Origin: Thermoanaerobaculia bacterium
Lineage (GTDB): Bacteria > Acidobacteriota > Thermoanaerobaculia > UBA5066
DNA length: 64,000 nt
Direction of reading: 5' to 3'
Assembly: GCA_963719225.1 (NCBI GenBank)
Contig: CAVRAY010000002.1
Coordinates: 160,001-224,000 of the forward strand
Each line of letters begins with the position of its first letter. Within the stretch, counting starts at the first letter, position 1. The notes beneath the pieces are model-generated. The model worked only from the letters and a program-made list of their open reading frames with translations. It was not told where the DNA came from and did not search any database. Position numbers and translations under genes: made by a program. Positions 38,750 through 52,928 of the stretch are shown one piece after another.

Positions 38750-40195
38750 ATGCAAGTTCCCTTCCGCCGCACCGCCGGGGCGCTTCTCGGCCTCGCTCTT
38801 CTTGCGGTTCCGGCCCCGGGAAACGCCGCCTCGCCGGCCGGGGCCGACACGTCAAGCGCCTGGCTGGACTCCACGTCCGCACGCTGGAACGAAATCGCCG
38901 AGAAGATCTGGGGCTTCTCCGAGACGGCGCTCCAGGAGACGAAGTCGTCCGCTCTCCTCGCCGACACTCTCGAAAAGGAAGGCTTCAGCGTGACGCGCGG
39001 CGTCGCGGGAATGCCGACGGCGTTCGTGGCTTCAGCGGGAGCTGGCGCGCCCGTCATCGGGGTCCTCGCCGAGTACGACGCGCTGCCCGGCCTTTCACAG
39101 ACGGCAGGCGCGCCGAAGAAGTCGCCGCTCGCCTCCGCGCCAGCTCCCGGCCACGGGTGCGGTCACAACCTCCTGGGCACGGCGGCAGTCGCGGCCGCCG
39201 TCGCGGCGAACCGCACCCGCGTCGCGGGGAAGCTTCCCGGCACGATCCGCGTCTTCGGCACGCCGGCCGAAGAGCAGCTCCTCGGCAAGCCGTTCATGCT
39301 CAGGGACGGCTCTTTCGCGGGAACCGATGCCGTCCTCGCCTGGCACCCAGCGGACGCGAACTACGTGTGCACGAAGCCTTATCTCGCGATCACCGCACTC
39401 GACGTGGAGTTCTTCGGAAAGACGGCGCATGCCGCGATGAACCCCTGGCTCGGGCGGAGCGCGCTCGACGCCGTCGAGCTGTTCGACCACGCCCTCGCGC
39501 TCATGCGGGAGCACGTGCTCCCGACCGCGCGCCTCCATCGCGCGATCAAGAGTGGCGGCCTCGCGGCGAACATCATCCCGGACTATGCCCGCGTCCAGTG
39601 GTTCGTGCGGGACGAGAACGGAGAACGCGTGAACGAGATGGTCGGGCGCCTGAAGAAGGCAGCCGAGGGCGCGGGTCTCGCGACCGAGACGACGTCGAAG
39701 GTGAGCCTTCTCGCCTCGACGCGCGAGCCGCTCTTCAACGCCGAGCTCTCGAAGGTCCTCCAGAGACATCTCGCCCTCGTCGGGGCGCCGAAGTGGGATG
39801 CCGCCGATGTCGCGCTCGCGCGCGGTGTCCAGAAAGAGGTCGGCATTCCCGAGGCCGGCCTTTCGGACACGGTCCTCCCATATGGTCCCGGGCACGGGTC
39901 CGGGGCTTCGTCGGACGTGGGCGAGGTGAGCGCGGCATTGCCGGTCGCCGAGCTCGCGGTCGCGACGGGGGCCGTGGGCCAGCCGTGGCACCACTGGGCC
40001 GTGACGTCCTGCTCGGGGCACGCGCTCGGCCGAAAGGGCATGCTCGTCGCGGCCAAGGTCCTCGCCGCGACGATGACGGATCTCCTGGGCGATGCCGCGA
40101 CCGTCGCCGCCGCGAAGGCCGAGTTTCAGAAGGCGACCGCCGGCAAGCCCTACGTCAGCCCGCTCGCGAAGGACGCGGTGCCGAAGATCTACTGA
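38750..40195 (+). CDS. M20 amidohydrolase (AbgB-like), exported
   Basis: EYDALPG, GHGCGHN, GTPAEE, SSDVGEVS. Confidence 0.9.
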   Translation: MQVPFRRTAGALLGLALLAVPAPGNAASPAGADTSSAWLDSTSARWNEIAEKIWGFSETALQETKSSALLADTLEKEGFSVTRGVAGMPTAFVASAGAGAPVIGVLAEYDALPGLSQTAGAPKKSPLASAPAPGHGCGHNLLGTAAVAAAVAANRTRVAGKLPGTIRVFGTPAEEQLLGKPFMLRDGSFAGTDAVLAWHPADANYVCTKPYLAITALDVEFFGKTAHAAMNPWLGRSALDAVELFDHALALMREHVLPTARLHRAIKSGGLAANIIPDYARVQWFVRDENGERVNEMVGRLKKAAEGAGLATETTSKVSLLASTREPLFNAELSKVLQRHLALVGAPKWDAADVALARGVQKEVGIPEAGLSDTVLPYGPGHGSGASSDVGEVSAALPVAELAVATGAVGQPWHHWAVTSCSGHALGRKGMLVAAKVLAATMTDLLGDAATVAAAKAEFQKATAGKPYVSPLAKDAVPKIY

Positions 40196-41364
40196 TCGCC
40201 GGGGGCGTCCACCGCGCGAAGCACGCCGTAGTCGACGAGCTTCCGGACGAGCTGCCGTCGCAGGACGAGCCCGTGGTCCTTCTTGATCGCCCTGAGCGCG
40301 TCGGGCACCTTCGAGCCGTCGAAGGCGGGAAGCGCCGGGAGGAGCACGGCGGGGGCATCGATGGGGTCGTAGGCGCTGTAGGTGGCCAGGCGAACGGTCC
40401 CATGTCCGACGCCAATGACGCTGAGGTTGCCGACCTCGAGGCGCTCCGGAAGTGCGTCGCTGGTCACCGCGTCGTAAGCAGCGCGTGCGAGCTGCGCGTG
40501 GAGAGCGACGGTCGCACCTCCGATGCGCTCCACGGCCTTCCACTCCAGGTTCCGGACGATCGCGTCGCATTCGCGGTAGAGCTCCTGCTCGCGTCCGGCC
40601 CAGCTTCCCCAGAGGGACCTGTACCTCTCGGGGCTTACGGTGCCGTCGATCTCGTCGCCCTTGACGGCTTCCGTCCGCCTTTGTGATGGCGGAAGTTTGA
40701 GCGGAAAGTTCACGCGGAGCGCTGCGTGGTCGAAACCGAGGGTGACGAGGCAGTGGATCGCGAGGTTTTCCTCGATGGCCGTCAGCAGCTCCCTGGCCGA
40801 GTCCCAGAACCGCTTCGCCGTGTCCCCGCGCTCGTGCTTGCAGAACCAGGTCATGCAGACGGAATTGCGATGACGCCAGATCCCGCATTCGCCGCCGATC
40901 CGGTCTTCGAGGTAATAGGGGCAGAGCATCGCCTCGCTGTGGCCGAAGACCCCGTCCCCGTGGTCGTACAGGAGGTTGTACGCCCCGCCGGCGCCGACCC
41001 AGAGCGGCGTCACGCCGACTTTCTTTCCGATCCTCTCCACGACGCGGGCCCGCCCTTCGGCCATGTCGGGTGACCCGTCCGCCAGGATCGCCCCGACGAG
41101 AAAGTTGTGAAGCTTCGGCAGGTACGTGCAGCACTTCGTCTTCGGGTTGAAGTAGACCGCGTCACGCTCTCCGTCCGCGCCGCCGGACACGGGCAGCATC
41201 GCGCAGTTCTCGCACGTGGCGTGCGGCTCGGAGGGGATCTTGCCCCCGAGCGCCGCCTCGAGCCAGCGCGCGTGGAGCGGCGCCAGGCCCTTGGCGGGAG
41301 CGTCGGCGATAAAAGGGAGCCGGACCATGGGAGCCCTGGGGCGTGTCACCTGGTCATTGCTCAC
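40189..41364 (-). CDS. Cys-cluster protein, YkgJ/FliB-like (copy 1)
   Basis: CENC...KCC...CPYY...CGIWRHRNSVC..WFC. Confidence 0.7.
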   Translation of the reverse strand: MSNDQVTRPRAPMVRLPFIADAPAKGLAPLHARWLEAALGGKIPSEPHATCENCAMLPVSGGADGERDAVYFNPKTKCCTYLPKLHNFLVGAILADGSPDMAEGRARVVERIGKKVGVTPLWVGAGGAYNLLYDHGDGVFGHSEAMLCPYYLEDRIGGECGIWRHRNSVCMTWFCKHERGDTAKRFWDSARELLTAIEENLAIHCLVTLGFDHAALRVNFPLKLPPSQRRTEAVKGDEIDGTVSPERYRSLWGSWAGREQELYRECDAIVRNLEWKAVERIGGATVALHAQLARAAYDAVTSDALPERLEVGNLSVIGVGHGTVRLATYSAYDPIDAPAVLLPALPAFDGSKVPDALRAIKKDHGLVLRRQLVRKLVDYGVLRAVDAPGDQ

Positions 41365-41372
41365 TAATAGAT

Positions 41373-41522
41373 CTAGGGGGAGGCCTTGTCGATATGCTTG
41401 GGGATCGAAAGATCACCGTGGTCGACCCTCCCCCCGCGGACCTTCCCGCCCTTGGCGGGCTTGACGTCGAGGTTCTTGGCCATTCTCTTTTGAGCCTTAG
41501 GTTTCTCCTTCGCGATTTTCAT
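41373..41522 (-). CDS. Double-glycine precursor L: MKIAKEKPKAQKRMAKNLDVKPAKGGKVRGG|RVDHGDLSIPKHIDKASP
   Basis: AAAGGAG RBS, conserved leader. Confidence 0.85.
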   Translation of the reverse strand: MKIAKEKPKAQKRMAKNLDVKPAKGGKVRGGRVDHGDLSIPKHIDKASP

Positions 41523-41539
41523 GTCTCTACTCCTTTGAA

Positions 41540-41686
41540 TCAAAGCTTCTTGACGCCGCCGCCGGAGCCCCCCGGCAGTTTGTCCATGCCGCCGCGGACC
41601 GCCCCGCCCCTGGACGGCTTGACCTCGAGGTCCTTGACGGTCTTCTTTCGCGAAGCCTTCGGGTTCTTCTTCGCAACCTTCTTCAT
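41540..41686 (-). CDS. Double-glycine precursor K: MKKVAKKNPKASRKKTVKDLEVKPSRGGAVRGG|MDKLPGGSGGGVKKL
   Basis: AAAGGAG RBS, conserved leader; manual translation. Confidence 0.8.
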   Translation of the reverse strand: MKKVAKKNPKASRKKTVKDLEVKPSRGGAVRGGMDKLPGGSGGGVKKL

Positions 41687-41910
41687 GTCCTCGCTCCTTT
41701 CTTCCTGTGTCGGTCGTGGCCTGGCTTCGGCCTTCGCTCGGCCGGAGCATCCTTGAACGGCGGCTCTTCCTCTGTCTTGGGGATCGGGGGACGTTCACCA
41801 AAGACCGTCTTCTGTGCAGCGCCCCCCTTGGGGTCGTTTCGGGGGACGAGGTCCCTGAGGGGTACGAACCCCGGCGACGGCTCCTTCCTGCGGCGCCTTG
41901 GCTTCGTCAT
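41683..41910 (-). CDS. Second-type small protein J (75 aa), motif LRDLVPRNDPKGG|AAQKTVFGE
   Basis: Paralog of 44170-44394; stop overlaps the next ATG. Confidence 0.65.
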   Translation of the reverse strand: MTKPRRRRKEPSPGFVPLRDLVPRNDPKGGAAQKTVFGERPPIPKTEEEPPFKDAPAERRPKPGHDRHRKKGART

Positions 41911-41917
41911 GCCGGCT

Positions 41918-41988
41918 TCGATGTCGACGGGCACGCGGAAGCTCTCGACGGCCTGGCCGCGGTCATCCGCGCCCGAAAGGAAGAACGA
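41918..41988. repeat. Fragment homologous to the VWA gene segment 38365-38441
   Basis: 37/38 identical nt at 41918-41955 vs 38365-38402; both encode GQAVESFRVPVDI on the minus strand. Confidence 0.85.
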
Positions 41989-42106
41989 TTTGGGTTTGGC
42001 CGTAGCCCCCACGGACTGTCCCGCCCTTCGCGGGCTTGACCCCGAGGTTCTTCGTCGCCTTGGTAGTCCTTGACTTGGAGGCCGTCTCCCTCGGGGTCTT
42101 TTTCAT
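41963..42106 (-). CDS. Double-glycine precursor I: MKKTPRETASKSRTTKATKNLGVKPAKGGTVRGG|YGQTQIVLPFGRG
   Basis: AAAGGAG RBS, conserved leader; manual translation. Confidence 0.8.
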   Translation of the reverse strand: MKKTPRETASKSRTTKATKNLGVKPAKGGTVRGGYGQTQIVLPFGRG

Positions 42107-42160
42107 GTCGTTTCTCCTTTCTTCCTTTTTCGGCCGTGAACGGGCTCGAGGGACGGTCGA

Positions 42161-42289
42161 CTATTTGGGCCAGTATCTCCCCCCCAGGCCTCCGCGGACG
42201 GTCCCGCCCTTGGCGGGCTTGACCTCGAGGTTCTTGGCCGCCTTCTTCTGAGAAGCCTTCGTGGCGCTTTTCTTCGTGGTCTTCTTCAT
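42161..42289 (-). CDS. Double-glycine precursor H: MKKTTKKSATKASQKKAAKNLEVKPAKGGTVRGG|LGGRYWPK
   Basis: AAAGGAG RBS, conserved leader; manual translation. Confidence 0.8.
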   Translation of the reverse strand: MKKTTKKSATKASQKKAAKNLEVKPAKGGTVRGGLGGRYWPK

Positions 42290-42377
42290 GTCGTCTCTCC
42301 TTTCTTCCTGTTTCGCTCGTGACCCTGTTTCGAGTGCTTGACGAGCATCCCATGTCGGAGGTGCATCATCTCGGGAT

Positions 42378-42554
42378 TCACTTGACCTTCGTGTTTATCG
42401 ACGCTGCAAGACTCGTGCGAACCCCGAGAGCTTGGAGCTCCACAGCGGTGGGACCTCCGCGAACATCGCCGCTCTTGTCGCGCCTGACCTCGAGATCCTT
42501 GACCGCCTTCCTGTGTGTACCCTTCCCTTCGCCTTTCTTCGTGGTCTTCATCAT
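42378..42554 (-). CDS. Double-glycine precursor G: MMKTTKKGEGKGTHRKAVKDLEVRRDKSGDVRGG|PTAVELQALGVRTSLAASINTKVK
   Basis: AGAGGAG RBS, conserved leader; manual translation. Confidence 0.8.
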   Translation of the reverse strand: MMKTTKKGEGKGTHRKAVKDLEVRRDKSGDVRGGPTAVELQALGVRTSLAASINTKVK

Positions 42555-42617
42555 GTCGTTTCTCCTCTTTTCCTGTTCCAGTCGTGACCCGGCTTCTGCC
42601 TTCTCATCGAGTTCTGG

Positions 42618-43796
42618 TTAGACGTGCTCGTCTTCGGGGGCGTCCACCGCGCGAAGAACGCCGTAGTCGACGAGCTTTCGGACGAGCTCGAGGCTCAGGA
42701 CGAGCCCGTGGTCCTTCTCGATCGCCCGAAGGGCGTCACGCACCTTCGAGCCGTCGAAGGCGGGAAGCGCCGGGAGGAGCGCGGCGGGCGCATCGGTCGG
42801 GTCGTAGGCGCTGTACGTGGCCAGGCGCACGGTCCCATGCCCGACGCCGATGACGTTGAGGTTGCCGATCTCGAGGCGCTCCGGAAGAGCGGAACTCGTC
42901 ACCGCCCGGTACGCGGCGCGTGCGAGCTGCGTGAGGAGAGCGACGGTCGCGCCGCCGATCCTCTCGACGTCCTTCCACTCCATGTCCCGGACGATCCCGT
43001 CGCTTTGGAGGTAGAGCTCCTTCTCGCGTCCGGCCCAGCTTCCCCAGAGGGCCTTGTACCTCTCGGGGCTCACCGTGCCGTCGAGCTCGTCCCCCTTCAC
43101 GGTTTCCGTCCGCTGAGACTTCGGAACCTTGAACGGGAAATTGGTCCGGAGCGCCGCGTCGTCGAAACCGAGGGTGACGAGGCAGTGGATCGCGAGGTTC
43201 TCCTCGACGGCCATCAGCAGCTCGTTGGCCGAGTCCCAGAACCGCTTCGCCGTGGCCCCTCGCTCGTGCTTGCAGAACCAGGTCATGCAGATGGAATTGC
43301 GGTGACGCCAGATCCCGCAGCCGCCGCCCATCCGGTCTTCGAGGTAGTAGGGGCAGCGCATCGCCTCGCTGTGGCCGAAGACCCCGTCACCGTGGTCGTA
43401 CATGAGGCCGTACGCTCCGCCGGCGCCAACGGAGAGCGGCGTCACGCCGACCTTTCTTCCGATCCTCTCCAGAACGCGCGCCTGTCCTTCGGCCATGTCG
43501 GGCGCCTCGTCTGCGAGGATCGCGCCGACGAGAAAGTTGTGAAGTCTCGGCAGGTAGGTGCAGCACTTCGTCTTGGGATTGAAGAAGACCGCGTCCCGGG
43601 CCCCGTCCGCGCCGCCGGGCACCGGGAGCATGACGCAGCTCTCGCATGTGGCGTGGGGCTCGGAGGGGATTTTTCCTCCGAGAGCCGCTTCGAGCCAGCG
43701 CGCATGGAGCGGCGCCAGGTCCTTGGCGGCAGCGCTGGCGATGAAAGGGAGCCGGACCATGGGAGCCCTGGGGCGTGTCACCTGCTCATTGCTCAC
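42618..43796 (-). CDS. Cys-cluster protein, YkgJ/FliB-like (copy 2)
   Basis: Close paralog of 40189-41364 with the same Cys pattern. Confidence 0.7.
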   Translation of the reverse strand: MSNEQVTRPRAPMVRLPFIASAAAKDLAPLHARWLEAALGGKIPSEPHATCESCVMLPVPGGADGARDAVFFNPKTKCCTYLPRLHNFLVGAILADEAPDMAEGQARVLERIGRKVGVTPLSVGAGGAYGLMYDHGDGVFGHSEAMRCPYYLEDRMGGGCGIWRHRNSICMTWFCKHERGATAKRFWDSANELLMAVEENLAIHCLVTLGFDDAALRTNFPFKVPKSQRTETVKGDELDGTVSPERYKALWGSWAGREKELYLQSDGIVRDMEWKDVERIGGATVALLTQLARAAYRAVTSSALPERLEIGNLNVIGVGHGTVRLATYSAYDPTDAPAALLPALPAFDGSKVRDALRAIEKDHGLVLSLELVRKLVDYGVLRAVDAPEDEHV

Positions 43797-43804
43797 TAAT
43801 AGAT

Positions 43805-43942
43805 CTAGGGGGAGGCCTTGTCGATATGCTTCGTGATGAGAAGGTCGCCTCCGCGAACCGCTCCGCCCTTGCCTGGCTTGACGTCGAGGTCCTTGGCCGC
43901 CTTCTTGGCCTTCGAGGGGGTCTTTTTAGTGGTCTTCTTCAT
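43805..43942 (-). CDS. Double-glycine precursor F: MKKTTKKTPSKAKKAAKDLDVKPGKGGAVRGG|DLLITKHIDKASP
   Basis: AAGGAG RBS, conserved leader. Confidence 0.85.
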   Translation of the reverse strand: MKKTTKKTPSKAKKAAKDLDVKPGKGGAVRGGDLLITKHIDKASP

Positions 43943-43993
43943 GTCGTTTCTCCTTCCTTCCTGTTTCAGTCGTGACCCGAACATGAAACGCAA

Positions 43994-44173
43994 TTAGTGT
44001 TTCCGCCATACCTCAATGACCACTTCCTTAATGTGCTCTCCCTTGATGGGAATGATGTCTCCGAGGCCATGCCCTCCACGGACCGTCCCACCCTTGGCGG
44101 GCTTGACGTCGAGGTTCTTCAGTGCCCTCTTGCGCGAGGCCTTCGCGGCGCTTTTCTTCGTGGTCTTTTTCAT
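43994..44173 (-). CDS. Double-glycine precursor E: MKKTTKKSAAKASRKRALKNLDVKPAKGGTVRGG|HGLGDIIPIKGEHIKEVVIEVWRKH
   Basis: AAAGGAG RBS, conserved leader; manual translation. Confidence 0.8.
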   Translation of the reverse strand: MKKTTKKSAAKASRKRALKNLDVKPAKGGTVRGGHGLGDIIPIKGEHIKEVVIEVWRKH

Positions 44174-44394
44174 ATCGGTTCTCCTTTCTTCCTGCTTCGG
44201 TCGTGACCCGGCTTCTGCCTTCGTTCCGCCGGAACATCTTTAAGGGGGTGGTTATCTTCTGTCTCGAGGATCTGGGGACGTTCGCCGAAGACCGTCTTCC
44301 CCGCCGACCCCCCCTTGGGGTCGTTTCGGGGGACGAGGTCCCTGAGGGCGACGAACCCGGGCGGCGTCTTCGTCTTGCGGCGGCCCTTCTTCAT
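44170..44394 (-). CDS. Second-type small protein D (74 aa), motif LRDLVPRNDPKGG|SAGKTVFGE
   Basis: TGATG coupling with the GT41 stop; paralog of 41683-41910. Confidence 0.65.
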   Translation of the reverse strand: MKKGRRKTKTPPGFVALRDLVPRNDPKGGSAGKTVFGERPQILETEDNHPLKDVPAERRQKPGHDRSRKKGEPI

Positions 44395-45896
44395 CACGCC
44401 GCCACCGGTGCGGGAAAGCAACCGCGTTCCTCGCCGCTGCCTCGCGCCTCCGAGCGAGATCGCGCGCGCCAGAGCTGGAAATAGACATCCTCGATGCAGC
44501 GCGCGAGCCTCGCGCAGTCGGTGACGGGCGAGGCCTTCAGGCGCTTCCTCATCGTGCGCCGTAGCTCTTCGCGTCTTTCCGCTTTTGCCGCCGATCCCCA
44601 TCGAATGGCCGTCTCGACGTACCCGCGCACGTCCCGGCTGACGAACTTCCCGAGACCGGCGTTTTCCAGCAGCGACGCGCTGGTACGCGAGATCCACCGA
44701 TCCCCCGAGAACGCGACGACCGGAACGCCCTGCCAGATGGCTTCCGTGGTCGTCGTGCCCCCGTTGTACGGGAACGTGTCGAGGGCGAGGTCGATGGCGT
44801 CGTAGTTTCGGAGGAAGTCGTAGTGCTCCGCAGGTCCGAGCATCGCCACGCGCTCGGGCTCGATGCCGCGCCGCGTGAATCGCGCGAGTGTGTGCTTGCG
44901 ATTGCCGGGGTCTCCCAGAGCGGCGTTGGCCAGGAGAAAGCGGCTTCCGGGGCATCGCCTCAGGATCTCGGCCCACGCGGCGACGACGCCGTCGTTGAGC
45001 TTGTAGAGCGACGAGAGACTGCCGAACGTGACGAAGCCGTTCTTGAGCGACGGCGGTGGCGCGACATCGGGGACCGGGTAATTCACCGCGAACGTCAGAG
45101 ACGAGAGCGGGAGCTCGACGACCTGCTCTCCATACCAGTGCTTCTCGCCGTCACGAATGAGCCAACGATCGCCGATCAGCGCATCGAACACGGGCAACCC
45201 GGAGGTTCCGAAGATGTTGAACCACGCCACGACGACTGGAGCCAGCCTCGTCGCGAACAGCGGCAGCCGGCCCACCCGACTGTACTGGTTGAGATCCACG
45301 AGAACGTCGAGCCCCGCCCGGGCGATCCGGCACGCGGCCGCGCCGTTGTCGAGGCGCGAGATGTCGTGGACGTGCGCCCCGCTCGTACGCGCCCGGCGGC
45401 GCACGGCGGAAGGGCGCGACGCGTCGGAAAAAAGGTGGACCTCCACCCTGCCGGGGTCGTGGTGATCGATCAGCCCCCACACCGGCTTCATCCAGTTGTC
45501 TGCGTGGAAAAACGACGAGACGTAGCCGATCTTTAGTACTTTCCTGACCGGGCTGCCGACGACGATCGCCCTGGCGGGCGCGACGGCTCGGGCGCGAACC
45601 GCGTCGCCCAGCGCGCGGCGGACCTTCAGGATCGCCGCGTGGTCCAGGCGCGGGTCGAACGGGGCGATCGTCGCGAGGAGCCGCTGGGCTCGGATGTCCG
45701 TACGAATCCGGAGAGACGCCCGAAGATGCCGGGTCGCCCTCTCGACCTCACCGAGCGCGAAGGTCGCCCGGGCGAGGTAATAACGTGCGGCCGCAGAATC
45801 CGGACTCGCCCGGACGGCCGATTCGAAGACAGCGAGGCCGCTCGCGTACTTGCCGGCCGCGAGCATGCGACGGCCATTCGGGCAGCCGGCGATCAT
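44394..45896 (-). CDS. TPR-containing GT41 (O-GlcNAc transferase/SPINDLY-like) glycosyltransferase
   Basis: KIGYVS, DVLVDL, RLAPV, VTFGS, LDTFPYNGGTTTTEAIWQGVPVV; TGATG coupling to precursor C. Confidence 0.85.
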   Translation of the reverse strand: MIAGCPNGRRMLAAGKYASGLAVFESAVRASPDSAAARYYLARATFALGEVERATRHLRASLRIRTDIRAQRLLATIAPFDPRLDHAAILKVRRALGDAVRARAVAPARAIVVGSPVRKVLKIGYVSSFFHADNWMKPVWGLIDHHDPGRVEVHLFSDASRPSAVRRRARTSGAHVHDISRLDNGAAACRIARAGLDVLVDLNQYSRVGRLPLFATRLAPVVVAWFNIFGTSGLPVFDALIGDRWLIRDGEKHWYGEQVVELPLSSLTFAVNYPVPDVAPPPSLKNGFVTFGSLSSLYKLNDGVVAAWAEILRRCPGSRFLLANAALGDPGNRKHTLARFTRRGIEPERVAMLGPAEHYDFLRNYDAIDLALDTFPYNGGTTTTEAIWQGVPVVAFSGDRWISRTSASLLENAGLGKFVSRDVRGYVETAIRWGSAAKAERREELRRTMRKRLKASPVTDCARLARCIEDVYFQLWRARSRSEARGSGEERGCFPAPVAA

Positions 45897-46069
45897 CAGG
45901 ACTTGAGCCGCGTGTCGTGACTCCACTGAGTGCTTTGAATTTCGATCCAATCCGTGTGTCGCACCTCTCCACCACGGACCGTCGCGCCCTTGGCGGGCTT
46001 GACCCGGAGGTTTCGGACGGGCTTCTTGTGAGCGGCCTTCGGCGCGGTTCTCTTGGTTGTTTTCTTCAT
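45896..46069 (-). CDS. Double-glycine precursor C: MKKTTKRTAPKAAHKKPVRNLRVKPAKGATVRGG|EVRHTDWIEIQSTQWSHDTRLKS
   Basis: Purine-rich RBS, conserved leader; manual translation. Confidence 0.8.
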   Translation of the reverse strand: MKKTTKRTAPKAAHKKPVRNLRVKPAKGATVRGGEVRHTDWIEIQSTQWSHDTRLKS

Positions 46070-46129
46070 GACGTTCTTCCTTTCTCGAGCGGACTCTCAC
46101 TATGTCGACGGACCTCTTCATGCCCTGCT

Positions 46130-46254
46130 TCATTCCTGGATCTTGGTTATCGGCTTTTTCCCCCCGCGGACGGTCCCGCCCTAGGCGGGCTGACCTCGAG
46201 GTTTCGGACGGCTTTCTTTGCCTTCGACGCGCTTTTCTTCGTGGTCTTGTTCAC
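46130..46254 (-). pseudogene. Inactivated precursor B (restored core KKPITKIQE)
   Basis: 1-nt deletion (GTC AG CCC) plus AAG>TAG relative to sibling leaders. Confidence 0.7.
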
Positions 46255-46261
46255 GTCGTCC

Positions 46262-46399
46262 TCATTTCGGCCGCCTATCTGGGGGACCGGGGGGGAATCC
46301 TCCGCGGACCGACCCGCCCATGACGGGCTTGACCTCGAGGTCCTTGACCGCTTTCTTGTTAGATGCCTTCGAGGGGTTCTTCTTCGCAGTCTTCTTCAT
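46262..46399 (-). CDS. Double-glycine precursor A: MKKTAKKNPSKASNKKAVKDLEVKPVMGGSVRGG|FPPGPPDRRPK
   Basis: AAAGGAG RBS; first gene after the sigma54 promoter; manual translation. Confidence 0.8.
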   Translation of the reverse strand: MKKTAKKNPSKASNKKAVKDLEVKPVMGGSVRGGFPPGPPDRRPK

Positions 46400-46440
46400 C
46401 TCTGTTCTCCTTTCTCGCGGTTTGTGACGGGCCCGAGCGA

Positions 46441-46456
46441 AGCAAGGGCCATTCCA
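46441..46456 (-). promoter_or_regulatory. sigma54 (-24/-12) promoter of the precursor array
   Basis: TGGAATGGCCCTTGCT = GG-N10-GC, ~40 nt upstream of precursor A and beside a sigma54 activator gene. Confidence 0.75.
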
Positions 46457-46591
46457 TCACTGAGAAGCAGTCGCAGGCGCGCGATGGCGGCGCATTTCAG
46501 GGCTCGACTGTCTCGTTTCAATGCGATGTCGCATCGTTTCGAGTGACCCGTTCCGAGTCGCCTCGTCGCGCTCGCTGCCGCTCGTGCCCGG

Positions 46592-47566
46592 TCACTTCGT
46601 GTCGCTGAGCTTCCTCTCGAGTCGGGCGCGGGAGATGCCGAGGGCCCGGGCTGCTCTCGTCTTGTTGCCGGAGAGCTCCCGGAGGACCCGGCGGATGTGG
46701 TTCTGCTCGACGGTTCGGAGACTCAGGTCGGTTGCGGGTGCCGGCCGCGCGGCGGAAGGCGGCGCTCCGGAGACGCCGTCGTTTTGGATCGGGACTGAGA
46801 GTTCCTCGATCACGCTGCCCTCGGTCATCGCAATGGCGGCGTGAATGACGAGGTCGAGCTCGCGCAGGTTCCCGGGCCAGTGGTACGAGAAGAGAGCATC
46901 CGCGGCCTTCTGTGAGAGGCCGGAGATGGCCCGTCCCTGCGCATGGGCGGCGCGGCGGATCGAGGCCGCGACGAGCTCGCGCAGGTCGTTCGGCCTCTCG
47001 CGCAGCGGGGGAAGGGTGACCGTGAGCCCCGCGAGCCTGTAGAAGAGGTCGCTCCGGAACTGCTCGGTGTTCGCGAACCGCGCGAGGGCGTGGCGCGTGG
47101 CCGAGATCAGCCGCACGTCCGCCGTGCGCAGGCGCTCGGAGCCGAGCCTCTCGAATTCGCCGTATTCGACCGCCCTGAGGATCTTCGCCTGGGCGAGCGG
47201 GCTCATGTCGGCGATCTCGTCGATGAAGAGGGTGCCGCCGTCGGCGATCTCGAACTTGCCGCGCACCTGCCGCTTCGCGTCCGTGAACGCGCCTTTCTCG
47301 TGGCCGAAGAGCTGGCTGTCGAGGAGCGTGTCGGAGAGGGCGGCGGCGTTGAAAGAGACGAAGGGGGCCGACGCCCTGAGAGAGGAGTTGTGGATGGCCT
47401 GGGCGAGGAGCGTCTTGCCGGTGCCTGACTCGCCGAGGAGGAGGAGCGGAAGCTCGGTCCGGCAGGCGGCGCGCGCCACGTCGAGGCACCGCCGCATCGC
47501 GGCGTCGGCTGTTCGGAAGCTCTCGAGCGTGAGGCGTGCCGCGTCGGGGAAGCTCTCCCGGGTCAC
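46592..47566 (-). CDS. sigma54-dependent activator (AAA+ and Fis HTH) lacking an N-terminal sensory domain
   Basis: GESGTGKT, LFGHEKGAFTDA, FIDEIAD, FRSDLFYRL, WPGNLREL, GNKTRAARALGISR. Confidence 0.92.
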   Translation of the reverse strand: MTRESFPDAARLTLESFRTADAAMRRCLDVARAACRTELPLLLLGESGTGKTLLAQAIHNSSLRASAPFVSFNAAALSDTLLDSQLFGHEKGAFTDAKRQVRGKFEIADGGTLFIDEIADMSPLAQAKILRAVEYGEFERLGSERLRTADVRLISATRHALARFANTEQFRSDLFYRLAGLTVTLPPLRERPNDLRELVAASIRRAAHAQGRAISGLSQKAADALFSYHWPGNLRELDLVIHAAIAMTEGSVIEELSVPIQNDGVSGAPPSAARPAPATDLSLRTVEQNHIRRVLRELSGNKTRAARALGISRARLERKLSDTK

Positions 47567-48765
47567 CGGATGTTCTCCCTCAGCTGCCGGAGCGGCTCGA
47601 AAGCGTACTCGACGAGAGTCCGACGGCCGACGACGATCCGCGCCATCCCGCGCATTCCCGCGAGGAGCGGTTTGCGCTCTCCGTCCGCCGCGACGGTTTG
47701 CTCGTCCAGGTCGACGAGGACGGGAAATGTCGCCGTCTCGCGGATCCCGACGCCGGAGGGGCTGGCCCACCGGACTGTCCCTCCGCGGACGCCATAGCGC
47801 TGGTACGGGAACGCCTCGAGGAGGAGACGAACGTTCTGGCCGGGGCGAATCCGGGCGAGGCCGCCCTGCGGAAGTGCCAGCTCGGCCTGAAGAGTTTCGG
47901 CGGAGCACGCGACCTCCGCGAGGACGTCGCCGTCACGGACCACAGCTCCTGCCCGCCTCGCCGTGACCCCGAGAACCGTGCCGTCGCAGGGAGAGTTGAC
48001 GGCCAGCTCGTTTCCAAGCCCGTCTCCGCCTGCGGAGGGCGCCTCGCCGCTGAGCGCCCCGATCCTGATTCTCGCCTGCGCGATCTTCTCTGCGAGGACC
48101 CGCTCCTCCTCGTGGAATTCCATCCCTTTGGCCGCCTCGGTGTCGCGGAGCTTTTCGATGGCGCTTCCGGTCGCGCCCCGCTCGGCCTGGAGCTGCTCGA
48201 GCTCCATCACGGCCTGGCTGTGCCGGATCTGGGCGTCGGAGCGCTCGTTCAGGCTCGCGAGCCCCTGGTCGGCGAGCTTCTTCGCGCGCTCGGACTGCTC
48301 CTTCGTCAGGACGAGCTGCTCCCTTTTCAGGGCCAGCATCCGATCGAGATAATCCGCGCGATCGGCGAGGCTCCGGGCCTCCTCGCGCCTCGCGCTCGCC
48401 TCGCTTTCGAATCTCCTCCGGGCATTGGAAAGGCTCTCGGCAAGGCCGCCGAGACCGGCTTCGAGCGCCTTCCGCTCGGACGCCCGGTCGGCGAATTCCT
48501 GTGACCGGATGGCGAAGAGCCTCGCCCCCCTGAGCACCGGGCGCCCCTCGACGGCGAGCACGTCCGTGACGGTTCCCCCGCGCGGAGCGCGGACCGGGTC
48601 GGTGCCGCGCACCGGCACCAGCGCGAACGGGGCAACGACCGTCTCCGGGACCTTGACGGCCACCGAGACGATCGCCGCGGCCACGAAGAGAGCGATCAGG
48701 ATCCAGGCGAGGCTCCGCGCGGCGAACGGCGGCGGGTCGCTCGGGAGAAACGGCGTCTCGTCCAT
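47563..48765 (-). CDS. HlyD family secretion membrane fusion protein
   Basis: Single transmembrane segment, long coiled coil, AFPYQRYG, LLAGM, YAFEPL. Confidence 0.92.
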   Translation of the reverse strand: MDETPFLPSDPPPFAARSLAWILIALFVAAAIVSVAVKVPETVVAPFALVPVRGTDPVRAPRGGTVTDVLAVEGRPVLRGARLFAIRSQEFADRASERKALEAGLGGLAESLSNARRRFESEASARREEARSLADRADYLDRMLALKREQLVLTKEQSERAKKLADQGLASLNERSDAQIRHSQAVMELEQLQAERGATGSAIEKLRDTEAAKGMEFHEEERVLAEKIAQARIRIGALSGEAPSAGGDGLGNELAVNSPCDGTVLGVTARRAGAVVRDGDVLAEVACSAETLQAELALPQGGLARIRPGQNVRLLLEAFPYQRYGVRGGTVRWASPSGVGIRETATFPVLVDLDEQTVAADGERKPLLAGMRGMARIVVGRRTLVEYAFEPLRQLRENIR

Positions 48766-51700
48766 CTAGATCCCCAGCTGCTGGCTCGAGAGGTAGTAGT
48801 AGAGGCCCTGGCGGTCCATCAGCTCGTCGTGGATCCCCTGCTCGACCAGACGCCCCTTCTCCAGCACGAGGATGACGTCCGCGTCGCGGATGGTGCTGAG
48901 CCGGTGCGCGATCACGAATGACGTCCGGCCTTCCAGAAGGCGGTCGAGGTTCTCCTTGACCGCCCGTTCCGACTCGCTGTCCAGTGAGCTGGTCGCTTCG
49001 TCGAAGATCAGCACCGGGGGCCGGTTGTAGATGGCACGCGCGATGGCGATGCGCTGCTTCTGTCCGCCGGAAAGAGCGAGGCCCGACTCGCCGACCCGGG
49101 TGTCGTAGCCCAGGGGAAACCTCTCCACGAACTCGTGGGCGCTCGCGACGCGGGCAGCCCAGAGAACCCGGTCCATGTCGGGCTCGGCGTCGCCGAAGGC
49201 GATGTTCCGCGCGATCGTCTCGTCGAAGAGGTAGTTCTCCTGGAGGACGAAGCCGACGCGCCGCCGGAGGTCCCTGTAGTTCAGCTTTTCGAGGTCCACT
49301 CCGTCGAAGAGGATCGATCCCTCGGTCGCCTCCAGGAGGCCGGAGAGGAGCTTGGCGAGCGTCGTCTTGCCGGAGCCGCTTCGGCCGACGACCGCCACCA
49401 TCTTTCCGGGCTCCACGTCGAAGGTGAGACCCTCGAGGATCTTCGGCGACTCGGGCCCGCCGTACTGGAAGCCGACGTTCCTGAGCGAGACCTTTCCCGC
49501 GAGCGTTCGGACCGGAATGAGCGCGGACCGGTCGTCGCCCTGCTCGGGGGTCTGCTCGAAGACGTCGTTCAGGCGGTCGAGGAGGACCGTGCCGTACTGG
49601 AGGTGGTCCCAGGTCGCGAGCAGGATCCCGATCGGCGCGTTCGCGAGGGCCACGAGCGCGTTGAACGCGACTAGCCCGCCGATGGTGAGCGACCCGCGCA
49701 TCACCTGGAGCGCGCCCGCCCACAGAAAGAGGGCGACCGAGAGGAAGCTCACGGCCTGGACGGCGCCCTCGTAGGTCATCACGGTGAAGTCGGCGCGAAA
49801 CTGCTTGCGGGCGAGGCCGAGGAACCGTTCCAGCATCAGCTGCCTGAGTGAGCCTTCGGCTCCGAGCGACTTGACGGTCTCGATCCCCTTGATGGTGTCG
49901 ATCTGATGGGCCGAATACTTTCCGAACGCCTCCTCGAGCGTGTCGAAGACGGGACGGAGCTTCCGCCGCGAATACCTCATCAGGAGGGCGTAGAGGGGAA
50001 CGGTCGCGAGGAAGACTCCCGCGAGGAGGGGGCTGTAGACGAACATCAGGACCACGACTGCGGCGAGCTGGGAGAGGGCGGTCAGGGAGGAGACCCCGTA
50101 CTGGACCAGGAGCTCGCGCACCTGACGGAGGCCCATGAGACGGCGCTGGATGTCCCCCGTCTTCCGCGTCGAGAAGTAGGACATCGGAAGCGACAGGAGG
50201 CGCCGGGTGATGAAGTCGAGCGTCGCGGCGTCGATCCGGACTGCGGCGAAGCTCAACAGGTATCGCTGCAGCACCATCGCCAGGGTCGAGAAAACGAGGA
50301 CGCCTCCCATCCCGAGGAGAAGAATCCGGAGCAACCCCTCGTCGCGCTCGACGAGAACCCGGTCGACGATCACCTGGCTGAAGACCGGCAGCACCATCTG
50401 CAGGATGCTGACGATCAACGCCAGAGCGGCCGCCTTCGCGAGGAGAGCGGCGTGCGGCCGAAAGAAGCGGGTGAGCCACGCGAAGCTCGAGCGTCCCACC
50501 GGAGCCTTCTCGAACGCTTCCGTGTAGTCGAAGAGGGCAGCGTAACCCGTCCACTCCTTCTCGACCTCTGCGCGCGGCAGGAGCCGGAGCCCGACCCCAG
50601 GGTCGGCCAGGCGAACGTCCGCCGGGTTCGTGTCGTAAAGGACGACCCAGTGGTTGCCGCCCCAGTGAAGGATGGCGGGGAGCGGCATCTGGTCCAGGTG
50701 CCGCGCCGAGGCCTTGACGGAGCGCGCGGCGAGTCCCAGCTCCTCGGCTCCGCGGCAGATCGCCCGGAGGCTCGTGCCGTCGGTCGATGTGAAGAGGAGC
50801 TGCCGGATCCGCGCCAGGCTCACCGCGCGGCCGAAGTGGCGACAGACCATCGCCAGGGAAGCCGCGCCGCAGTCCATCTCGTCGATCTGCCGGATGAAGC
50901 GGAAACGGCGGATCCGCCGAGCCTTCTTGGTGAACCGACCGTCCTCCGTCGCGAAGGGAGCGGCGGGCTCCTCGCCCGCTGCTTCGTCCGCCCGGCCGCC
51001 GGCATCCTCGTCGACTTGGTCCGGACCCACCTCCTCCACCGCCGCCTCCGCGGGCAGGAGCTCGTCGGCGAAGTCGAGCGGAACCGTCGCCTCCTTTCGG
51101 TAGTCGTACTGGGCGATACGCCGGCCGATGGCCGCGCGGAACCCGGGATGCGCCTCGGTGACGGCCCGGAAGGCGGTCGGGTGCAGGCTCAGGAGCCGAC
51201 AGGGCGTGACGGCCTCGACTGTGGCCTTTCTCGGTTCTCCCGTGAACGCCGAGATCTCGCCGAAGACATCGCCTTTCCGGAGGTAGGCGATGTTTCGCAG
51301 GTGCCCGTCCTCCTCGGCGAAGGCGCGAAGCCTTCCTTCCTCGACGACGAAAAGAGGTCCTTCCCCGTCTCCCTGTCGGAACACGGTCTCCCCTGCGGCG
51401 ACGGCGATCGTCTCGAACCGGTGGAGGAGCCCGGCGAGGACCGCTGGCGGAAGCGTGGAGAACGGGGTGTAGAGACGGAAGAGGTTCTGGAGGCTCCGGT
51501 ACCGGCTGTGGAGCTCCAGGCAGGTCCGGATCTCGGGATCGCCGGAGAGAAGCTCGTCGAAGGCGCTTCGGTCGAGCCGGAGGACCGTCGCGGCGCTCGA
51601 CGCGCGCACCGTGGCCTGCCGCCTGGCGGAGTCGTCCAGGAGACCCATTTCGCCGAAGCTGTCCCCGGGACGAAGCACGCCGAGCGAAACCTCCTCGCCC

Positions 51701-51942
51701 CGCTCTCCCATCTTCACCGCACGGGCTTTCCCGGCCACGAGGACGAAGAAGGCGTCCGCGGGATCGCCCTCGCGAAGGATGACGGCGCCGAAGGGAAAGG
51801 AGACGGGGACGAACTTCCCGGTCACCGCGGCGCGAGACGCAGGCGAGAGGAACTTCAGGAGCGGCAGGTCGTCGAGGAGGGCCCGCGCCGCCTCCACCTC
51901 CGGCGGGAGGGACGACTTCGCCTTGCTCTTCAAGGCTTCCAT
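48766..51942 (-). CDS. Peptidase-containing ABC transporter (2x cNMP, C39 peptidase, TMD, ATPase)
   Basis: GDSFGEMG and GDVFGEIS cNMP motifs, QIDEMDCGAASL, HWVVLYD, GRSGSGKT, LSGGQKQR, DEATSSLD. Confidence 0.95.
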   Translation of the reverse strand: MEALKSKAKSSLPPEVEAARALLDDLPLLKFLSPASRAAVTGKFVPVSFPFGAVILREGDPADAFFVLVAGKARAVKMGERGEEVSLGVLRPGDSFGEMGLLDDSARRQATVRASSAATVLRLDRSAFDELLSGDPEIRTCLELHSRYRSLQNLFRLYTPFSTLPPAVLAGLLHRFETIAVAAGETVFRQGDGEGPLFVVEEGRLRAFAEEDGHLRNIAYLRKGDVFGEISAFTGEPRKATVEAVTPCRLLSLHPTAFRAVTEAHPGFRAAIGRRIAQYDYRKEATVPLDFADELLPAEAAVEEVGPDQVDEDAGGRADEAAGEEPAAPFATEDGRFTKKARRIRRFRFIRQIDEMDCGAASLAMVCRHFGRAVSLARIRQLLFTSTDGTSLRAICRGAEELGLAARSVKASARHLDQMPLPAILHWGGNHWVVLYDTNPADVRLADPGVGLRLLPRAEVEKEWTGYAALFDYTEAFEKAPVGRSSFAWLTRFFRPHAALLAKAAALALIVSILQMVLPVFSQVIVDRVLVERDEGLLRILLLGMGGVLVFSTLAMVLQRYLLSFAAVRIDAATLDFITRRLLSLPMSYFSTRKTGDIQRRLMGLRQVRELLVQYGVSSLTALSQLAAVVVLMFVYSPLLAGVFLATVPLYALLMRYSRRKLRPVFDTLEEAFGKYSAHQIDTIKGIETVKSLGAEGSLRQLMLERFLGLARKQFRADFTVMTYEGAVQAVSFLSVALFLWAGALQVMRGSLTIGGLVAFNALVALANAPIGILLATWDHLQYGTVLLDRLNDVFEQTPEQGDDRSALIPVRTLAGKVSLRNVGFQYGGPESPKILEGLTFDVEPGKMVAVVGRSGSGKTTLAKLLSGLLEATEGSILFDGVDLEKLNYRDLRRRVGFVLQENYLFDETIARNIAFGDAEPDMDRVLWAARVASAHEFVERFPLGYDTRVGESGLALSGGQKQRIAIARAIYNRPPVLIFDEATSSLDSESERAVKENLDRLLEGRTSFVIAHRLSTIRDADVILVLEKGRLVEQGIHDELMDRQGLYYYLSSQQLGI

Positions 51943-52928
51943 AGCCACGTGACCCTGTTGTCGACCTCGCGCGCGACGAGGCCTTCGAGGAGGCTGGACT
52001 CCGCCTTTTCCTTTACCTCGGGATCGTCCGGCATCGGCGGAATCTTCGCGCGGAGCGAGACGAGCACGAACTCGTCGCCGACGCTCACCGGACCGACGAG
52101 CTCTCCCGGGCGCGCCGAGAGCAGGACGTCCCGGACCTCAGGCTCAGCCTCGTCGAGAAACTCCACGCCTTCCTCCGTGGCTTCGCCGATTTCCTCCGCC
52201 AGCCTTTCGAGGGCGACTCCCTCCTGTCGCACCGCCATCGCCGCCTCGCGCGCGGCGTCCTCGCCGGGAAGCCTCAGGACGCTGCAGTCGATGCGGGTCC
52301 AATCGGTGAGGTGCGCCTTGACCCGCGCCGCCAGCGCATCGGGAGTGAGCACCTCATCGCGAAACCGCTCGTACGAGAGCTCCAGGCGAGCGAAGACCTC
52401 CCGCCGCTCGACGAGCGTCCCGGTCGGGCCTGGTTCTTCGTCGGGAGCCTGCGTCCGTTCCTTCTCCCTTTCCCCGATCGCGGCCCGCCCCGCGAGCTGC
52501 CGCGCCAGACGCTCCAGCTCTCCGGAACACACGGCCTCGCCGAGGACGGCCAGCTCGACCTGGCGAGGATCCACCTGGGGCTTGGCCGGAAGGACGAAGT
52601 CCGGAAGGCGGTCGCGGAGGAGGCTGGCGTGAATCCAGTCGAGCCAGGTCTCCGCGTCGAGGCGCCAGCGCGCGAGCCAGCGTTCCAGCTCCTCCGCGGT
52701 GATGAGGTCCCGCTCGTACCGGAAGTCGTCCGCGGCCCCGTCGATCTCATCTTGAGGAATGACGGCTTCCGCGGCCGTGTCCGCAAAGGCGAGAAGAGCG
52801 AGGTTGTCGAGAGCCCGCTCCTCGATCTCCTTCCAGTCGCCCCGCAGCTCCGCAGCCAGGACGACGTCCTCCCACCGGAAGACCCGGCCACCCGCGCAAA
52901 ATACGTCCCGCCCGAAGAGATCCTGCAC
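51930..52928 (-). CDS. Foldase/parvulin-like accessory protein
   Basis: DDFRYERDLITAEELERWL and ARPGELVGPV resemble PPIase-like partners of cNMP-PCAT operons. Confidence 0.65.
   Translation of the reverse strand: MQDLFGRDVFCAGGRVFRWEDVVLAAELRGDWKEIEERALDNLALLAFADTAAEAVIPQDEIDGAADDFRYERDLITAEELERWLARWRLDAETWLDWIHASLLRDRLPDFVLPAKPQVDPRQVELAVLGEAVCSGELERLARQLAGRAAIGEREKERTQAPDEEPGPTGTLVERREVFARLELSYERFRDEVLTPDALAARVKAHLTDWTRIDCSVLRLPGEDAAREAAMAVRQEGVALERLAEEIGEATEEGVEFLDEAEPEVRDVLLSARPGELVGPVSVGDEFVLVSLRAKIPPMPDDPEVKEKAESSLLEGLVAREVDNRVTWLWKP

What the first reader, a model, noticed from the sequence alone, without database searches (positions are those of the whole stretch)
40189..52928. Candidate new peptide-export system: sigma54-driven array of Lys-rich double-glycine precursors with hypervariable cores
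Seen: ten co-oriented short ORFs (42-59 aa when intact, one pseudogene) share the leader MKK..K-rich..(N/D)L(E/D)VKPAKGG.VRGG followed by mostly unrelated 8-25 aa tails. They lie downstream of a C39-peptidase ABC exporter, HlyD, a foldase-like gene and a sigma54 activator, and are interleaved with a GT41 glycosyltransferase and two Cys-cluster proteins. Established: C39 exporters cleave after GG and secrete the core. The leader keeps hydrophobic residues at -4 and -12 but is basic rather than acidic. Inference: a RiPP-like library of secreted peptides. I see no lanthipeptide, YcaO or radical SAM enzyme, so it fits no class I recognise.
Basis: partly seen in the sequence, partly recalled or inferred. 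Interest (0 to 1): 0.95.

Follow-up and report, generated by a model that had tools for sequence, protein, structure and literature searches.

The report
Exported peptide library cut from Hcp
A bacterium carries an array of tiny genes for peptides that are predicted to be cut and exported, and many of their working ends are pieces of Hcp, the tube protein of the type VI secretion weapon, resembling other species' Hcp more than its own, so they would likely act as mimics that jam or decoy rivals' weapons.

Summary
The array is real: nine intact double-glycine-leader genes and one pseudogene, plus two missed genes of a second leader type, lie behind an intact C39 exporter cassette. The tails are not unrelated. 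Four of nine are pieces of Hcp, the T6SS tube protein. Among 59 leader homologues, 21 tails match an Hcp profile at p≤0.01 (0 of 177 control peptides), and together they tile almost all of Hcp. The window's tails resemble foreign Hcp more than the genome's own, and three relatives with such peptides have no full-length Hcp or TssC found. Leaders follow host family while cores cross families. One core is partly an out-of-frame piece of a VWA gene, so foreign DNA does get captured behind the leader. Best reading: an exported, probably modified library of Hcp mimics aimed at rivals' T6SS. Cleavage, export and activity are untested. This scan already reported the Hcp-core family on other DNA (at least seven notes). 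Nine literature searches found no description. Added here: VWA capture, leader-core modularity, enzyme-precursor pairing.

The parts
51930..52928 (-). PpiC/SurA-like accessory protein, distant TIGR04500 relative; first gene of the cassette
   Evidence: Pfam Rotamase_2 E 1.2e-5; TIGR04500 E 7e-8, 32 bits against a cut-off of 180; found in 6 of 61 relatives and 10 of 301 class genomes
48766..51948 (-). Peptidase-containing ABC exporter: 2 cNMP-binding domains, C39 peptidase (C360, H433, D449), membrane domain, ATPase
47563..48765 (-). HlyD-type adaptor; no TolC-type gene in the cluster, 14 OEP domain matches elsewhere on C1
46592..47566 (-). sigma54 activator (AAA+ and HTH_8) with no recognisable N-terminal sensory domain when started at the ATG at 47566
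   Evidence: Sigma54_activat from residue 20; 58-88% identical orthologues at the same position in G017, G016, G041, G051, G195, G188
46521..46534 (.). 14-bp palindrome between two GAAACG repeats; candidate activator site (inferred)
46441..46456 (-). Candidate sigma54 -24/-12 promoter (GG-N10-GC)
   Evidence: a similar site lies behind the activator in 5 of 10 cassettes examined (G000, G017, G041, G051, G188)
46262..46399 (-). Precursor p1, 45 aa; Pro-rich 11-aa core, not Hcp-like
46130..46254 (-). Precursor pseudogene p2 (frameshift, internal stop)
45896..46069 (-). Precursor p3, 57 aa; core matches Hcp profile positions 20-36; abuts the GT41 start
   Evidence: p=0.010
44394..45896 (-). TPR + GT41 (OGT/SPINDLY-like) glycosyltransferase; candidate tailoring enzyme
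   Evidence: E 1.9e-37
44170..44394 (-). Second-type (b) GG ORF b1, 74 aa, conserved DL.P..PKGG..K.xFG; its 3' end carries the RBS of p4
43994..44173 (-). Precursor p4, 59 aa; core matches Hcp positions 75-87
   Evidence: p=0.005
43805..43942 (-). Precursor p5, 45 aa; core matches Hcp positions 55-67
   Evidence: PF05638 E 0.13, p=0.005
42618..43796 (-). Cys-cluster protein 1, remotely YkgJ/PF03692-like, with a C-terminal three-strand, three-helix domain; candidate maturase
   Evidence: (PF03692 in 19 of 52 members, best E 0.003)
42378..42554 (-). Precursor p6, 58 aa; core not Hcp-like, recurs in homologues (P0219, P0234, P0240)
42161..42289 (-). Precursor p7, 42 aa; 8-aa core, unassigned
41963..42106 (-). 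Precursor p8, 47 aa; last 8 core residues and the stop codon come from the captured VWA piece, out of frame
41918..41988 (-). About 71-bp piece of a VWA-domain gene (own copy at window about 38365-38440) inserted behind a leader
   Evidence: 52 bp, 88%, E 2e-11
41683..41910 (-). Second-type GG ORF b2, 75 aa; overlaps the start of p9
41540..41686 (-). Precursor p9, 48 aa; Gly-rich core, Hcp match not significant
   Evidence: p=0.13
41373..41522 (-). Precursor p10, 49 aa; core matches Hcp positions 50-67
   Evidence: PF05638 E 0.0018; TIGR03344 E 0.058, p=0.005
40189..41364 (-). Cys-cluster protein 2, a duplicate of copy 1 together with its upstream precursor end

Best explanation
The cluster encodes a library of short peptides, many of them pieces of foreign-like Hcp tube proteins, that are predicted to be cut after VRGG and exported, and that likely act as mimics jamming or decoying the type VI secretion tubes of rival bacteria. 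Shown by sequence and calls: the genes, the intact C39 residues, the Hcp origin of many cores, their tiling of Hcp, and the swapping of cores onto lineage-specific leaders. Inferred: the truncated sigma54 activator drives transcription from the site at 46441-46456. The GT41 and Cys proteins likely modify particular precursors. The C39 domain would remove the leader, and the ABC/HlyD complex with a TolC encoded elsewhere would release the cores. New members likely arise when DNA fragments recombine in behind the repeated RBS-plus-leader unit, and selection would keep in-frame Hcp pieces because a beta-strand copy of Hcp could bind Hcp rings or Hcp partners and spoil tube assembly. That last step is the least supported.
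For: Hcp origin: 4 of 9 window cores at p<=0.01. In the leader-driven set, 21 of 59 cores pass against 0 of 177 natural control peptides; with a wider profile 23 of 59 pass and cover 143 of 161 positions. G195: 6 of 6 cores pass, covering 107 of 161 positions. Foreign rather than self: own Hcps rank 132 and 167 of 181 as donors for the window's cores, or 22 and 55 of 69 in a set not chosen by core similarity. One G017 core is 24/27 identical to Hcp P0351 against 10/27 to its own. No full-length Hcp was found in G041, G051 or G195 and no TssC, yet they carry 13, 12 and 6 Hcp-like cores. Constraint: p10 and a G041 core share 15 of 18 residues with pS 0.89 and pN 0.18. Modularity: the nearest leader is in the same host family for 44 of 45 Hcp-like precursors, the nearest core for only 27 of 45. 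Capture: the VWA piece. Precedent: a designed peptide mimic of a T6SS baseplate interface blocks T6SS in culture (PMC8406304, abstract).
Against: No activity, binding, cleavage or expression data. By my own knowledge T6SS tubes are built in the attacker's cytoplasm, so an exported peptide needs a way in, and I saw no uptake or immunity gene. 5 of 9 window cores, and 36 of 59 homologue cores at p<=0.01, are not detectably Hcp. Coverage is spread over Hcp rather than focused on one interface. G000 and G017 have T6SS genes themselves, and in G017 one own Hcp ranks 8 of 181 and 6 of 69. pN<pS could reflect selection in donor hcp genes, and pairs were chosen by local similarity. The G041/G051 regions were picked by Hcp hits, so their fractions are inflated.
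Confidence: 0.4

Rival explanations
1. Generic RiPP-like combinatorial library. Hcp is only raw material, for example an abundant and mobile gene rich in amphipathic strands. The products act by their own chemistry after tailoring, not by resembling Hcp.
For: An out-of-frame VWA piece also became a core. More than half of the cores are not detectably Hcp. Two G041 cores match a gp19 tube profile at p=0.005. Tailoring genes vary between clusters (GT41, Cys protein, radical-SAM-like, LanC-like by my reading).
Against: All Hcp pieces found are in frame and in sense behind the GG, come from several Hcp lineages, and keep their residues across families with saturated synonymous sites. Random capture does not predict one protein family in 21 of 59 cores.
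Confidence: 0.25
2. Signal mimics. The peptides imitate Hcp breakdown products or Hcp surfaces read by regulators or receptors, as an alarm among kin or a false signal to competitors or eukaryotic neighbours.
For: Intracellular Hcp is a regulatory ligand in Lysobacter, where it binds Clp (PMC7577485, abstract). The cassette has a sigma54 activator and cNMP-gated exporter; the cNMP domain of HetC binds ppGpp (PMC10986499, passages). The b-type peptide is conserved in 6 of 8 other cassette genomes scanned, as an autoinducer might be.
Against: No sensor kinase or receptor gene lies in the cluster. A signal needs one epitope, not pieces covering 143 of 161 positions.
Confidence: 0.22
3. Decay products of an ancestral leader plus full-length Hcp cargo gene that was duplicated and truncated; now mostly neutral.
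For: A pseudogene and tandem duplications are present. One G017 leader gene sits just upstream of a stand-alone Hcp-like gene.
Against: No leader-plus-full-Hcp fusion among the 61 hits of the 1.84-billion library (59 hits of 43-81 aa) or the 120 listed of 247 longer hits. Cores start at many Hcp positions, derive from several lineages and show pN<pS.
Confidence: 0.06
4. Split Hcp: the pieces reassemble outside the cell into an Hcp-like or amyloid-like structure.
For: G041, G051 and G195 cover 134, 135 and 107 of 161 positions.
Against: This genome covers only 48 of 161; pieces overlap and mix lineages.
Confidence: 0.07

Closest known systems
Double-glycine-leader peptides exported by PCAT + HlyD (class II bacteriocins and microcins; NHLP/Nif11 precursor families, TIGR03793/03798 with TIGR03794/03796/03797; PMC2887384, passages read)
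   Same: Conserved leader ending in GG, then a short variable core; many paralogous precursors per genome, some in trans; C39-ABC exporter and HlyD nearby.
   Different: The leader is about 34 aa, Lys-rich, and hit no leader model in NCBIfam or Pfam. The exporter scores below the TIGR03796 cut-off (528 vs 853) and is a single gene with two cNMP domains. In NHLP the leader derives from an enzyme; here the core derives from a structural protein. Cores are Cys-poor (10 of 59 with any Cys).
HetC-type cNMP-C39-ABC exporters (PMC10986499, passages read)
   Same: cNMP-binding domain in front of a catalytically intact C39 domain.
   Different: HetC has one cNMP domain, no adjacent HlyD and no known substrate; here there are two domains, HlyD and a precursor array.
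TIGR04500/MirC partner protein of rosaritide biosynthesis (PMC13097080, section 8 and passages read)
   Same: PpiC/SurA-like gene beside a PCAT and precursor.
   Different: Match far below cut-off (32 vs 180 bits); no ATP-grasp ligase in this cluster.
Prochlorosins (bioRxiv 10.1101/2020.03.09.984088, abstract read)
   Same: Dozens of precursors per genome with conserved leader and diverse cores; function unknown; recombination proposed.
   Different: No LanM; cores here trace to an identifiable donor protein family.
Hcp/TssD, PF05638
   Same: Cores align to it from position 2 to 161; some databases label these minigenes 'Hcp'.
   Different: Only 8-33-residue pieces behind an export leader, outside T6SS loci; far too short for the Hcp fold (about 160 residues).
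Glycocins (PMC12457901 and its preprint; search listing only)
   Same: Precursor + glycosyltransferase + C39 exporter.
   Different: The transferase here is GT41; glycocin transferases are GT2 and their cores are disulfide-bonded (recalled). Window cores have no Cys.

Membership tests
PCAT-exported double-glycine peptides | Conserved leader ending in GG/GA followed by a variable core | tested here: met
   the DNA repeat unit ends at the GG codons
PCAT-exported double-glycine peptides | Linked C39-ABC exporter with catalytic Cys/His/Asp, and HlyD | tested here: met
   (residues assigned by motif position, motif recalled)
PCAT-exported double-glycine peptides | Leader found only with an exporter in the genome | tested here: met
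   profile A3 hit 2 of 61 genomes, both with the cassette; 12 of G017's 28 hits lie away from the cluster; the profile is too narrow to see the f2-type leaders
PCAT-exported double-glycine peptides | Hydrophobic -4, -7, -12 helical leader consensus (recalled) | tested here: inconclusive
   V at -4 and -12, L at -14, but G at -7 and P at -10; a second GG at -7/-6 leaves the cut site open
PCAT-exported double-glycine peptides | Actual cleavage and secretion | not testable with these tools
   needs bench work
NHLP/Nif11 precursors | Leader matches TIGR03793/03795/03798 | tested here: not met
   no such hit for 11 ORFs at E<=1
NHLP/Nif11 precursors | Three-gene TIGR03794/03796/03797 exporter above cut-off | tested here: not met
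   all below cut-off; one ABC gene only
Lanthipeptide / TOMM / graspetide / radical-SAM RiPP | Class-defining enzyme in the cluster | tested here: not met
   none in Pfam or NCBIfam scans of the cluster's genes
Glycocins | Cys-rich core and GT2 transferase (recalled) | tested here: not met
   no Cys in the nine window cores; transferase is GT41
Hcp/TssD | Full PF05638 domain above 23.5 bits, in a T6SS locus | tested here: not met
   best 19 bits over 31 of 129 positions; the genome's true Hcps lie elsewhere
YkgJ/CxxCxxCC (PF03692), for the Cys proteins | Match above the Pfam cut-off | tested here: inconclusive
   19 of 52 members at E<=1, best 0.003; Atlas hit at 0.81 only; hhalign to one YkgJ protein 41%
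RiPP recognition element, for the Cys protein C-terminus | Three-strand, three-helix winged-helix fold matching PqqD-like structures | tested here: inconclusive
   secondary-structure order of residues 307-383 fits by my reading (mean pLDDT 88.5); no PqqD profile hit; fold search not obtained

The most novel reading that the evidence does not exclude
A heritable, antigen-library-like defence. Bacteria capture fragments of other species' hcp genes (and occasionally other tube proteins) behind a repeated export leader, and secrete the tiled fragments as dominant-negative poisons or decoys of the injection machines of the competitors they have met. The array would then be a peptide-level record of enemy weapons, with its own new tailoring enzymes.
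Probability: 0.25. Interest if true: 0.95.

Novelty: categorically new. Interest (0 to 1): 0.8.

Why it matters
The export route is known, but a natural peptide library tiled across a foreign structural protein is not something my nine searches found. If the peptides inhibit T6SS tubes, they are natural anti-T6SS agents and a new layer of interbacterial defence, testable with cheap synthetic peptides. If not, the family still shows how new secreted peptides arise by capturing gene fragments behind a leader, a long-standing question for hypervariable RiPP cores. It also offers two candidate tailoring enzymes (a GT41 and an uncharacterised Cys-cluster protein) with their substrates next door. 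The family looks large: 26 of 30 Atlas hits for a classical-leader member are clusters (50 or more members each) carrying PF05638; the listed representatives are 57-62 aa.

Tried and rejected
Cores copied from the genome's own hcp genes: no DNA-level match. Leader plus full-length Hcp fusions: none found (long proteins can crowd out hits, so this is weak). Junction microhomology at Hcp glycines: 4 of 31 junctions have G at -1 against 12% background, rejected. Reverse-transcriptase-driven capture: RVT_1 found in 3 of 5 genomes, not in G041 or G195, and far from the window's array. gp19/eCIS tube as a second major donor: 0 of 59 and 4 of 106 cores at p<=0.01, none in the window. DUF1559 origin of some cores: only a sub-threshold PF07596 hit on one G051 peptide (E 0.35). 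Flp-pilin origin of the p6-type core is recalled only and was not tested. Core searches of plasmids found nothing useful. Precursors and cores against PDB: 0 hits. Cys alignment against PDB sequences: nothing below E 0.8. No Rfam hit. Sigma70 and terminator scans at chance level. No close GTDB donor gene for P0351 in 401 genomes (best 44%), so capture could not be dated at DNA level. G017 C6 array piece against its own genome: matches only other array copies. Expression: no RNA holder listed, no evidence either way.
Full report
Observation. Six-frame translation shows nine intact ORFs of 42-59 aa on the minus strand between 41373 and 46399, each with an RBS-like upstream sequence, a Lys-rich leader ending in VRGG and an 8-25-aa tail, plus a pseudogene at 46130-46254. 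Of 1793 small candidate ORFs in the genome, only these nine pass a K-rich + GG + RBS filter. At DNA level the repeated unit is an RBS region plus leader and ends at the GG codons. Upstream lie a PpiC-like gene, a 2x cNMP-C39-ABC exporter with C360/H433/D449, HlyD and a sigma54 activator with no recognisable sensory domain; a TPR-GT41 and two Cys proteins are interleaved. A GG-N10-GC site at 46441-46456 has counterparts in 5 of 10 cassettes examined. Source labels on close relatives place the organism among Thermoanaerobaculia, Acidobacteriota.

The cores are largely pieces of Hcp. I noted the resemblance by eye first. Pfam then gave p10 E 0.0018 and p5 E 0.13 against T6SS_HCP. A homologue search returned 87 short proteins, several already labelled 'Hcp' by JGI; that query was enriched for one Hcp segment, so its 40 of 98 significant cores are biased. 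A mainly leader-driven search of 1.84 billion proteins gave 61 hits; I dropped two long ones, a repetitive ORF and an off-frame read-through of an array. Of the other 59, 21 cores beat 200 shuffles each at p<=0.01 on a profile of 50 full-length Hcps, against 0 of 177 natural control peptides of equal length. With an 80-sequence profile, which includes Hcps retrieved by core similarity, 23 of 59 pass and cover 143 of 161 positions. Per genome: window 4 of 9 (positions 20-36, 50-67, 55-67, 75-87), G017 10 of 27, G195 6 of 6, G041 13 of 33, G051 12 of 31. The last two fractions are inflated because I chose their regions by Hcp hits.

The pieces look foreign. The genome has its own Hcp genes, but the cores do not match them at DNA level. 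As donors for the four cores the two own T6SS Hcps rank 132 and 167 of 181, or 22 and 55 of 69 in a set not selected by core similarity. The best donor, P0347, gives 13/18 and 11/13 identity to p10 and p5. A G017 core is 24/27 identical to P0351, whose close relative P0352 is labelled Bryobacteraceae, against 10/27 to G017's own Hcp. Against this, one G017 Hcp ranks 8 of 181 overall. In G041, G051 and G195 (92-99% complete) neither full-length Hcp nor TssC was found, yet they have the same cassette and cover 134, 135 and 107 of 161 Hcp positions. No leader fused to a whole Hcp turned up.

How the library changes. G017's orthologous cluster (79-94% identical proteins) has 15 intact precursors whose cores almost all differ from the window's, and 12 more leader hits elsewhere. 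For 45 Hcp-like precursors from five genomes, the nearest leader is in the same host family 44 times, the nearest core only 27 times; the leader tree itself is poorly resolved. p10 and a G041 core share 15 of 18 residues while synonymous sites are saturated (pS 0.89, pN 0.18); pairs were selected by similarity, and the constraint may partly have acted in donor genes. One event shows capture directly. The last eight residues and stop of p8 come from a roughly 71-bp out-of-frame piece of a VWA gene (E 2e-11). Orthologues in congeners match it as well as or better than the copy 3.5 kb away (8 of 8 checked loci are VWA orthologues). A single event cannot separate a capture mechanism from a rearrangement scar. 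Glycine microhomology and a reverse transcriptase were tested and not supported.

Tailoring. The Cys protein family has at least 170 homologues and no confident family. It sits beside a GG-leader ORF in 9 of 14 genomes examined, with K-rich or acidic leaders. Its model is confident (mean pLDDT 88.5), and residues 307-383 have the strand and helix order of a RiPP recognition element by my reading; this was not confirmed by a fold search. All 6 close GT41 orthologues whose upstream gene was visible follow a precursor with a W/Y-I-E/D/Q motif, against 5 of 36 such cores in G000 plus G017; this pattern is post hoc. The b-type ORF recurs in 6 of 8 other cassette genomes scanned, including cassettes without the array, so it may be regulatory (inference). 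The cassette is patchy: 6 of 61 relatives and 10 of 301 class genomes. Two genomes flagged unpublished (G037, G205) enter only the denominators of such tallies.

Mechanism. Cleavage and export follow from established PCAT biology (PMC2887384 and PMC10986499, passages); I put them near 0.9. What the cores do is inferred. In-frame, conserved pieces of foreign-like Hcp in genomes that often lack T6SS point to a target in other cells. A designed peptide mimic can block T6SS assembly (PMC8406304, abstract). I therefore commit to mimics that jam or decoy rival tubes (0.4), ahead of raw material for a generic library (0.25), signal mimicry (0.22; Hcp as a regulator ligand, PMC7577485, abstract), split Hcp (0.07) and decay (0.06). 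The main weakness is access: tubes are built in the cytoplasm (own knowledge), and more than half of the cores are unassigned.

Comparison and novelty. The system works like double-glycine PCAT peptide families but fails membership of NHLP/Nif11, glycocins and enzyme-defined RiPP classes. The PpiC-like gene is a distant relative of MirC (PMC13097080, section 8 and passages; TIGR04500 also tabulated in PMC8939145, passages). Searches found no description of Hcp-derived cores; the library lacks most subscription papers and I read no supplements, where such families could be listed. This scan has reported the Hcp-core family before on other DNA; those notes agree with my reading but are not independent evidence. 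Verdict: real, unexplained by known classes, interest 0.8.

Noticed in passing
G000:C1:3152913-3153762: One TssC (VipB) gene of the genome's own T6SS matches in several frames, so it is frameshifted or carries assembly errors; a second copy at C1:3165967-3166833 is in one frame.
   Followed up: no
G000:C2:483705-484148 and C1:3227963-3228352: Two stand-alone, divergent Hcp-like genes outside the tandem Hcp pair.
   Followed up: partly
L059:1085-1938 (G017:C29): A lone precursor gene with an Hcp-like core lies about 225 bp upstream of a stand-alone Hcp-like gene; stand-alone gp19-like genes also lie within 7-10 kb of two G017 precursor sites.
   Followed up: partly
L024, L026, L013 beside the Cys gene: A different GG peptide family with acidic leaders and a conserved core motif K(T/V)AxKxADA(I/V)xx(Y/F)IRG/KG flanks Cys-protein homologues in G004, G023 and G018; origin unknown.
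   Followed up: no
L112:14693-20000 and L023 (G041, G051): Two long genes with a CxxxCxxC motif, read by me as B12-radical SAM, each follow a precursor whose core begins SFSF/SYSF.
   Followed up: no
L116, L117, L121, L122 (G041, G051): A further K-rich leader subtype (KLxLKRETLKDL-like) carries Cys-containing cores that are not Hcp-like, possibly lanthipeptide-type.
   Followed up: no
P0075; P0006: Cys-protein homologues fused or read through to a precursor: an Hcp-like piece at the C-terminus in P0075, a leader at the N-terminus in P0006.
   Followed up: partly
L216 (G317), L217 (G188), L215 (G265): Distant cassettes with other cargo: three long-core GG peptides in G317; only the b-type ORF in G188 (followed by a LanC-like gene by my reading) and G265.
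   Followed up: partly
L020:12330-12430 (G017): A 21-codon piece resembling the GT41 C-terminus lies after the last precursor, another small duplicated fragment in an array.
   Followed up: no
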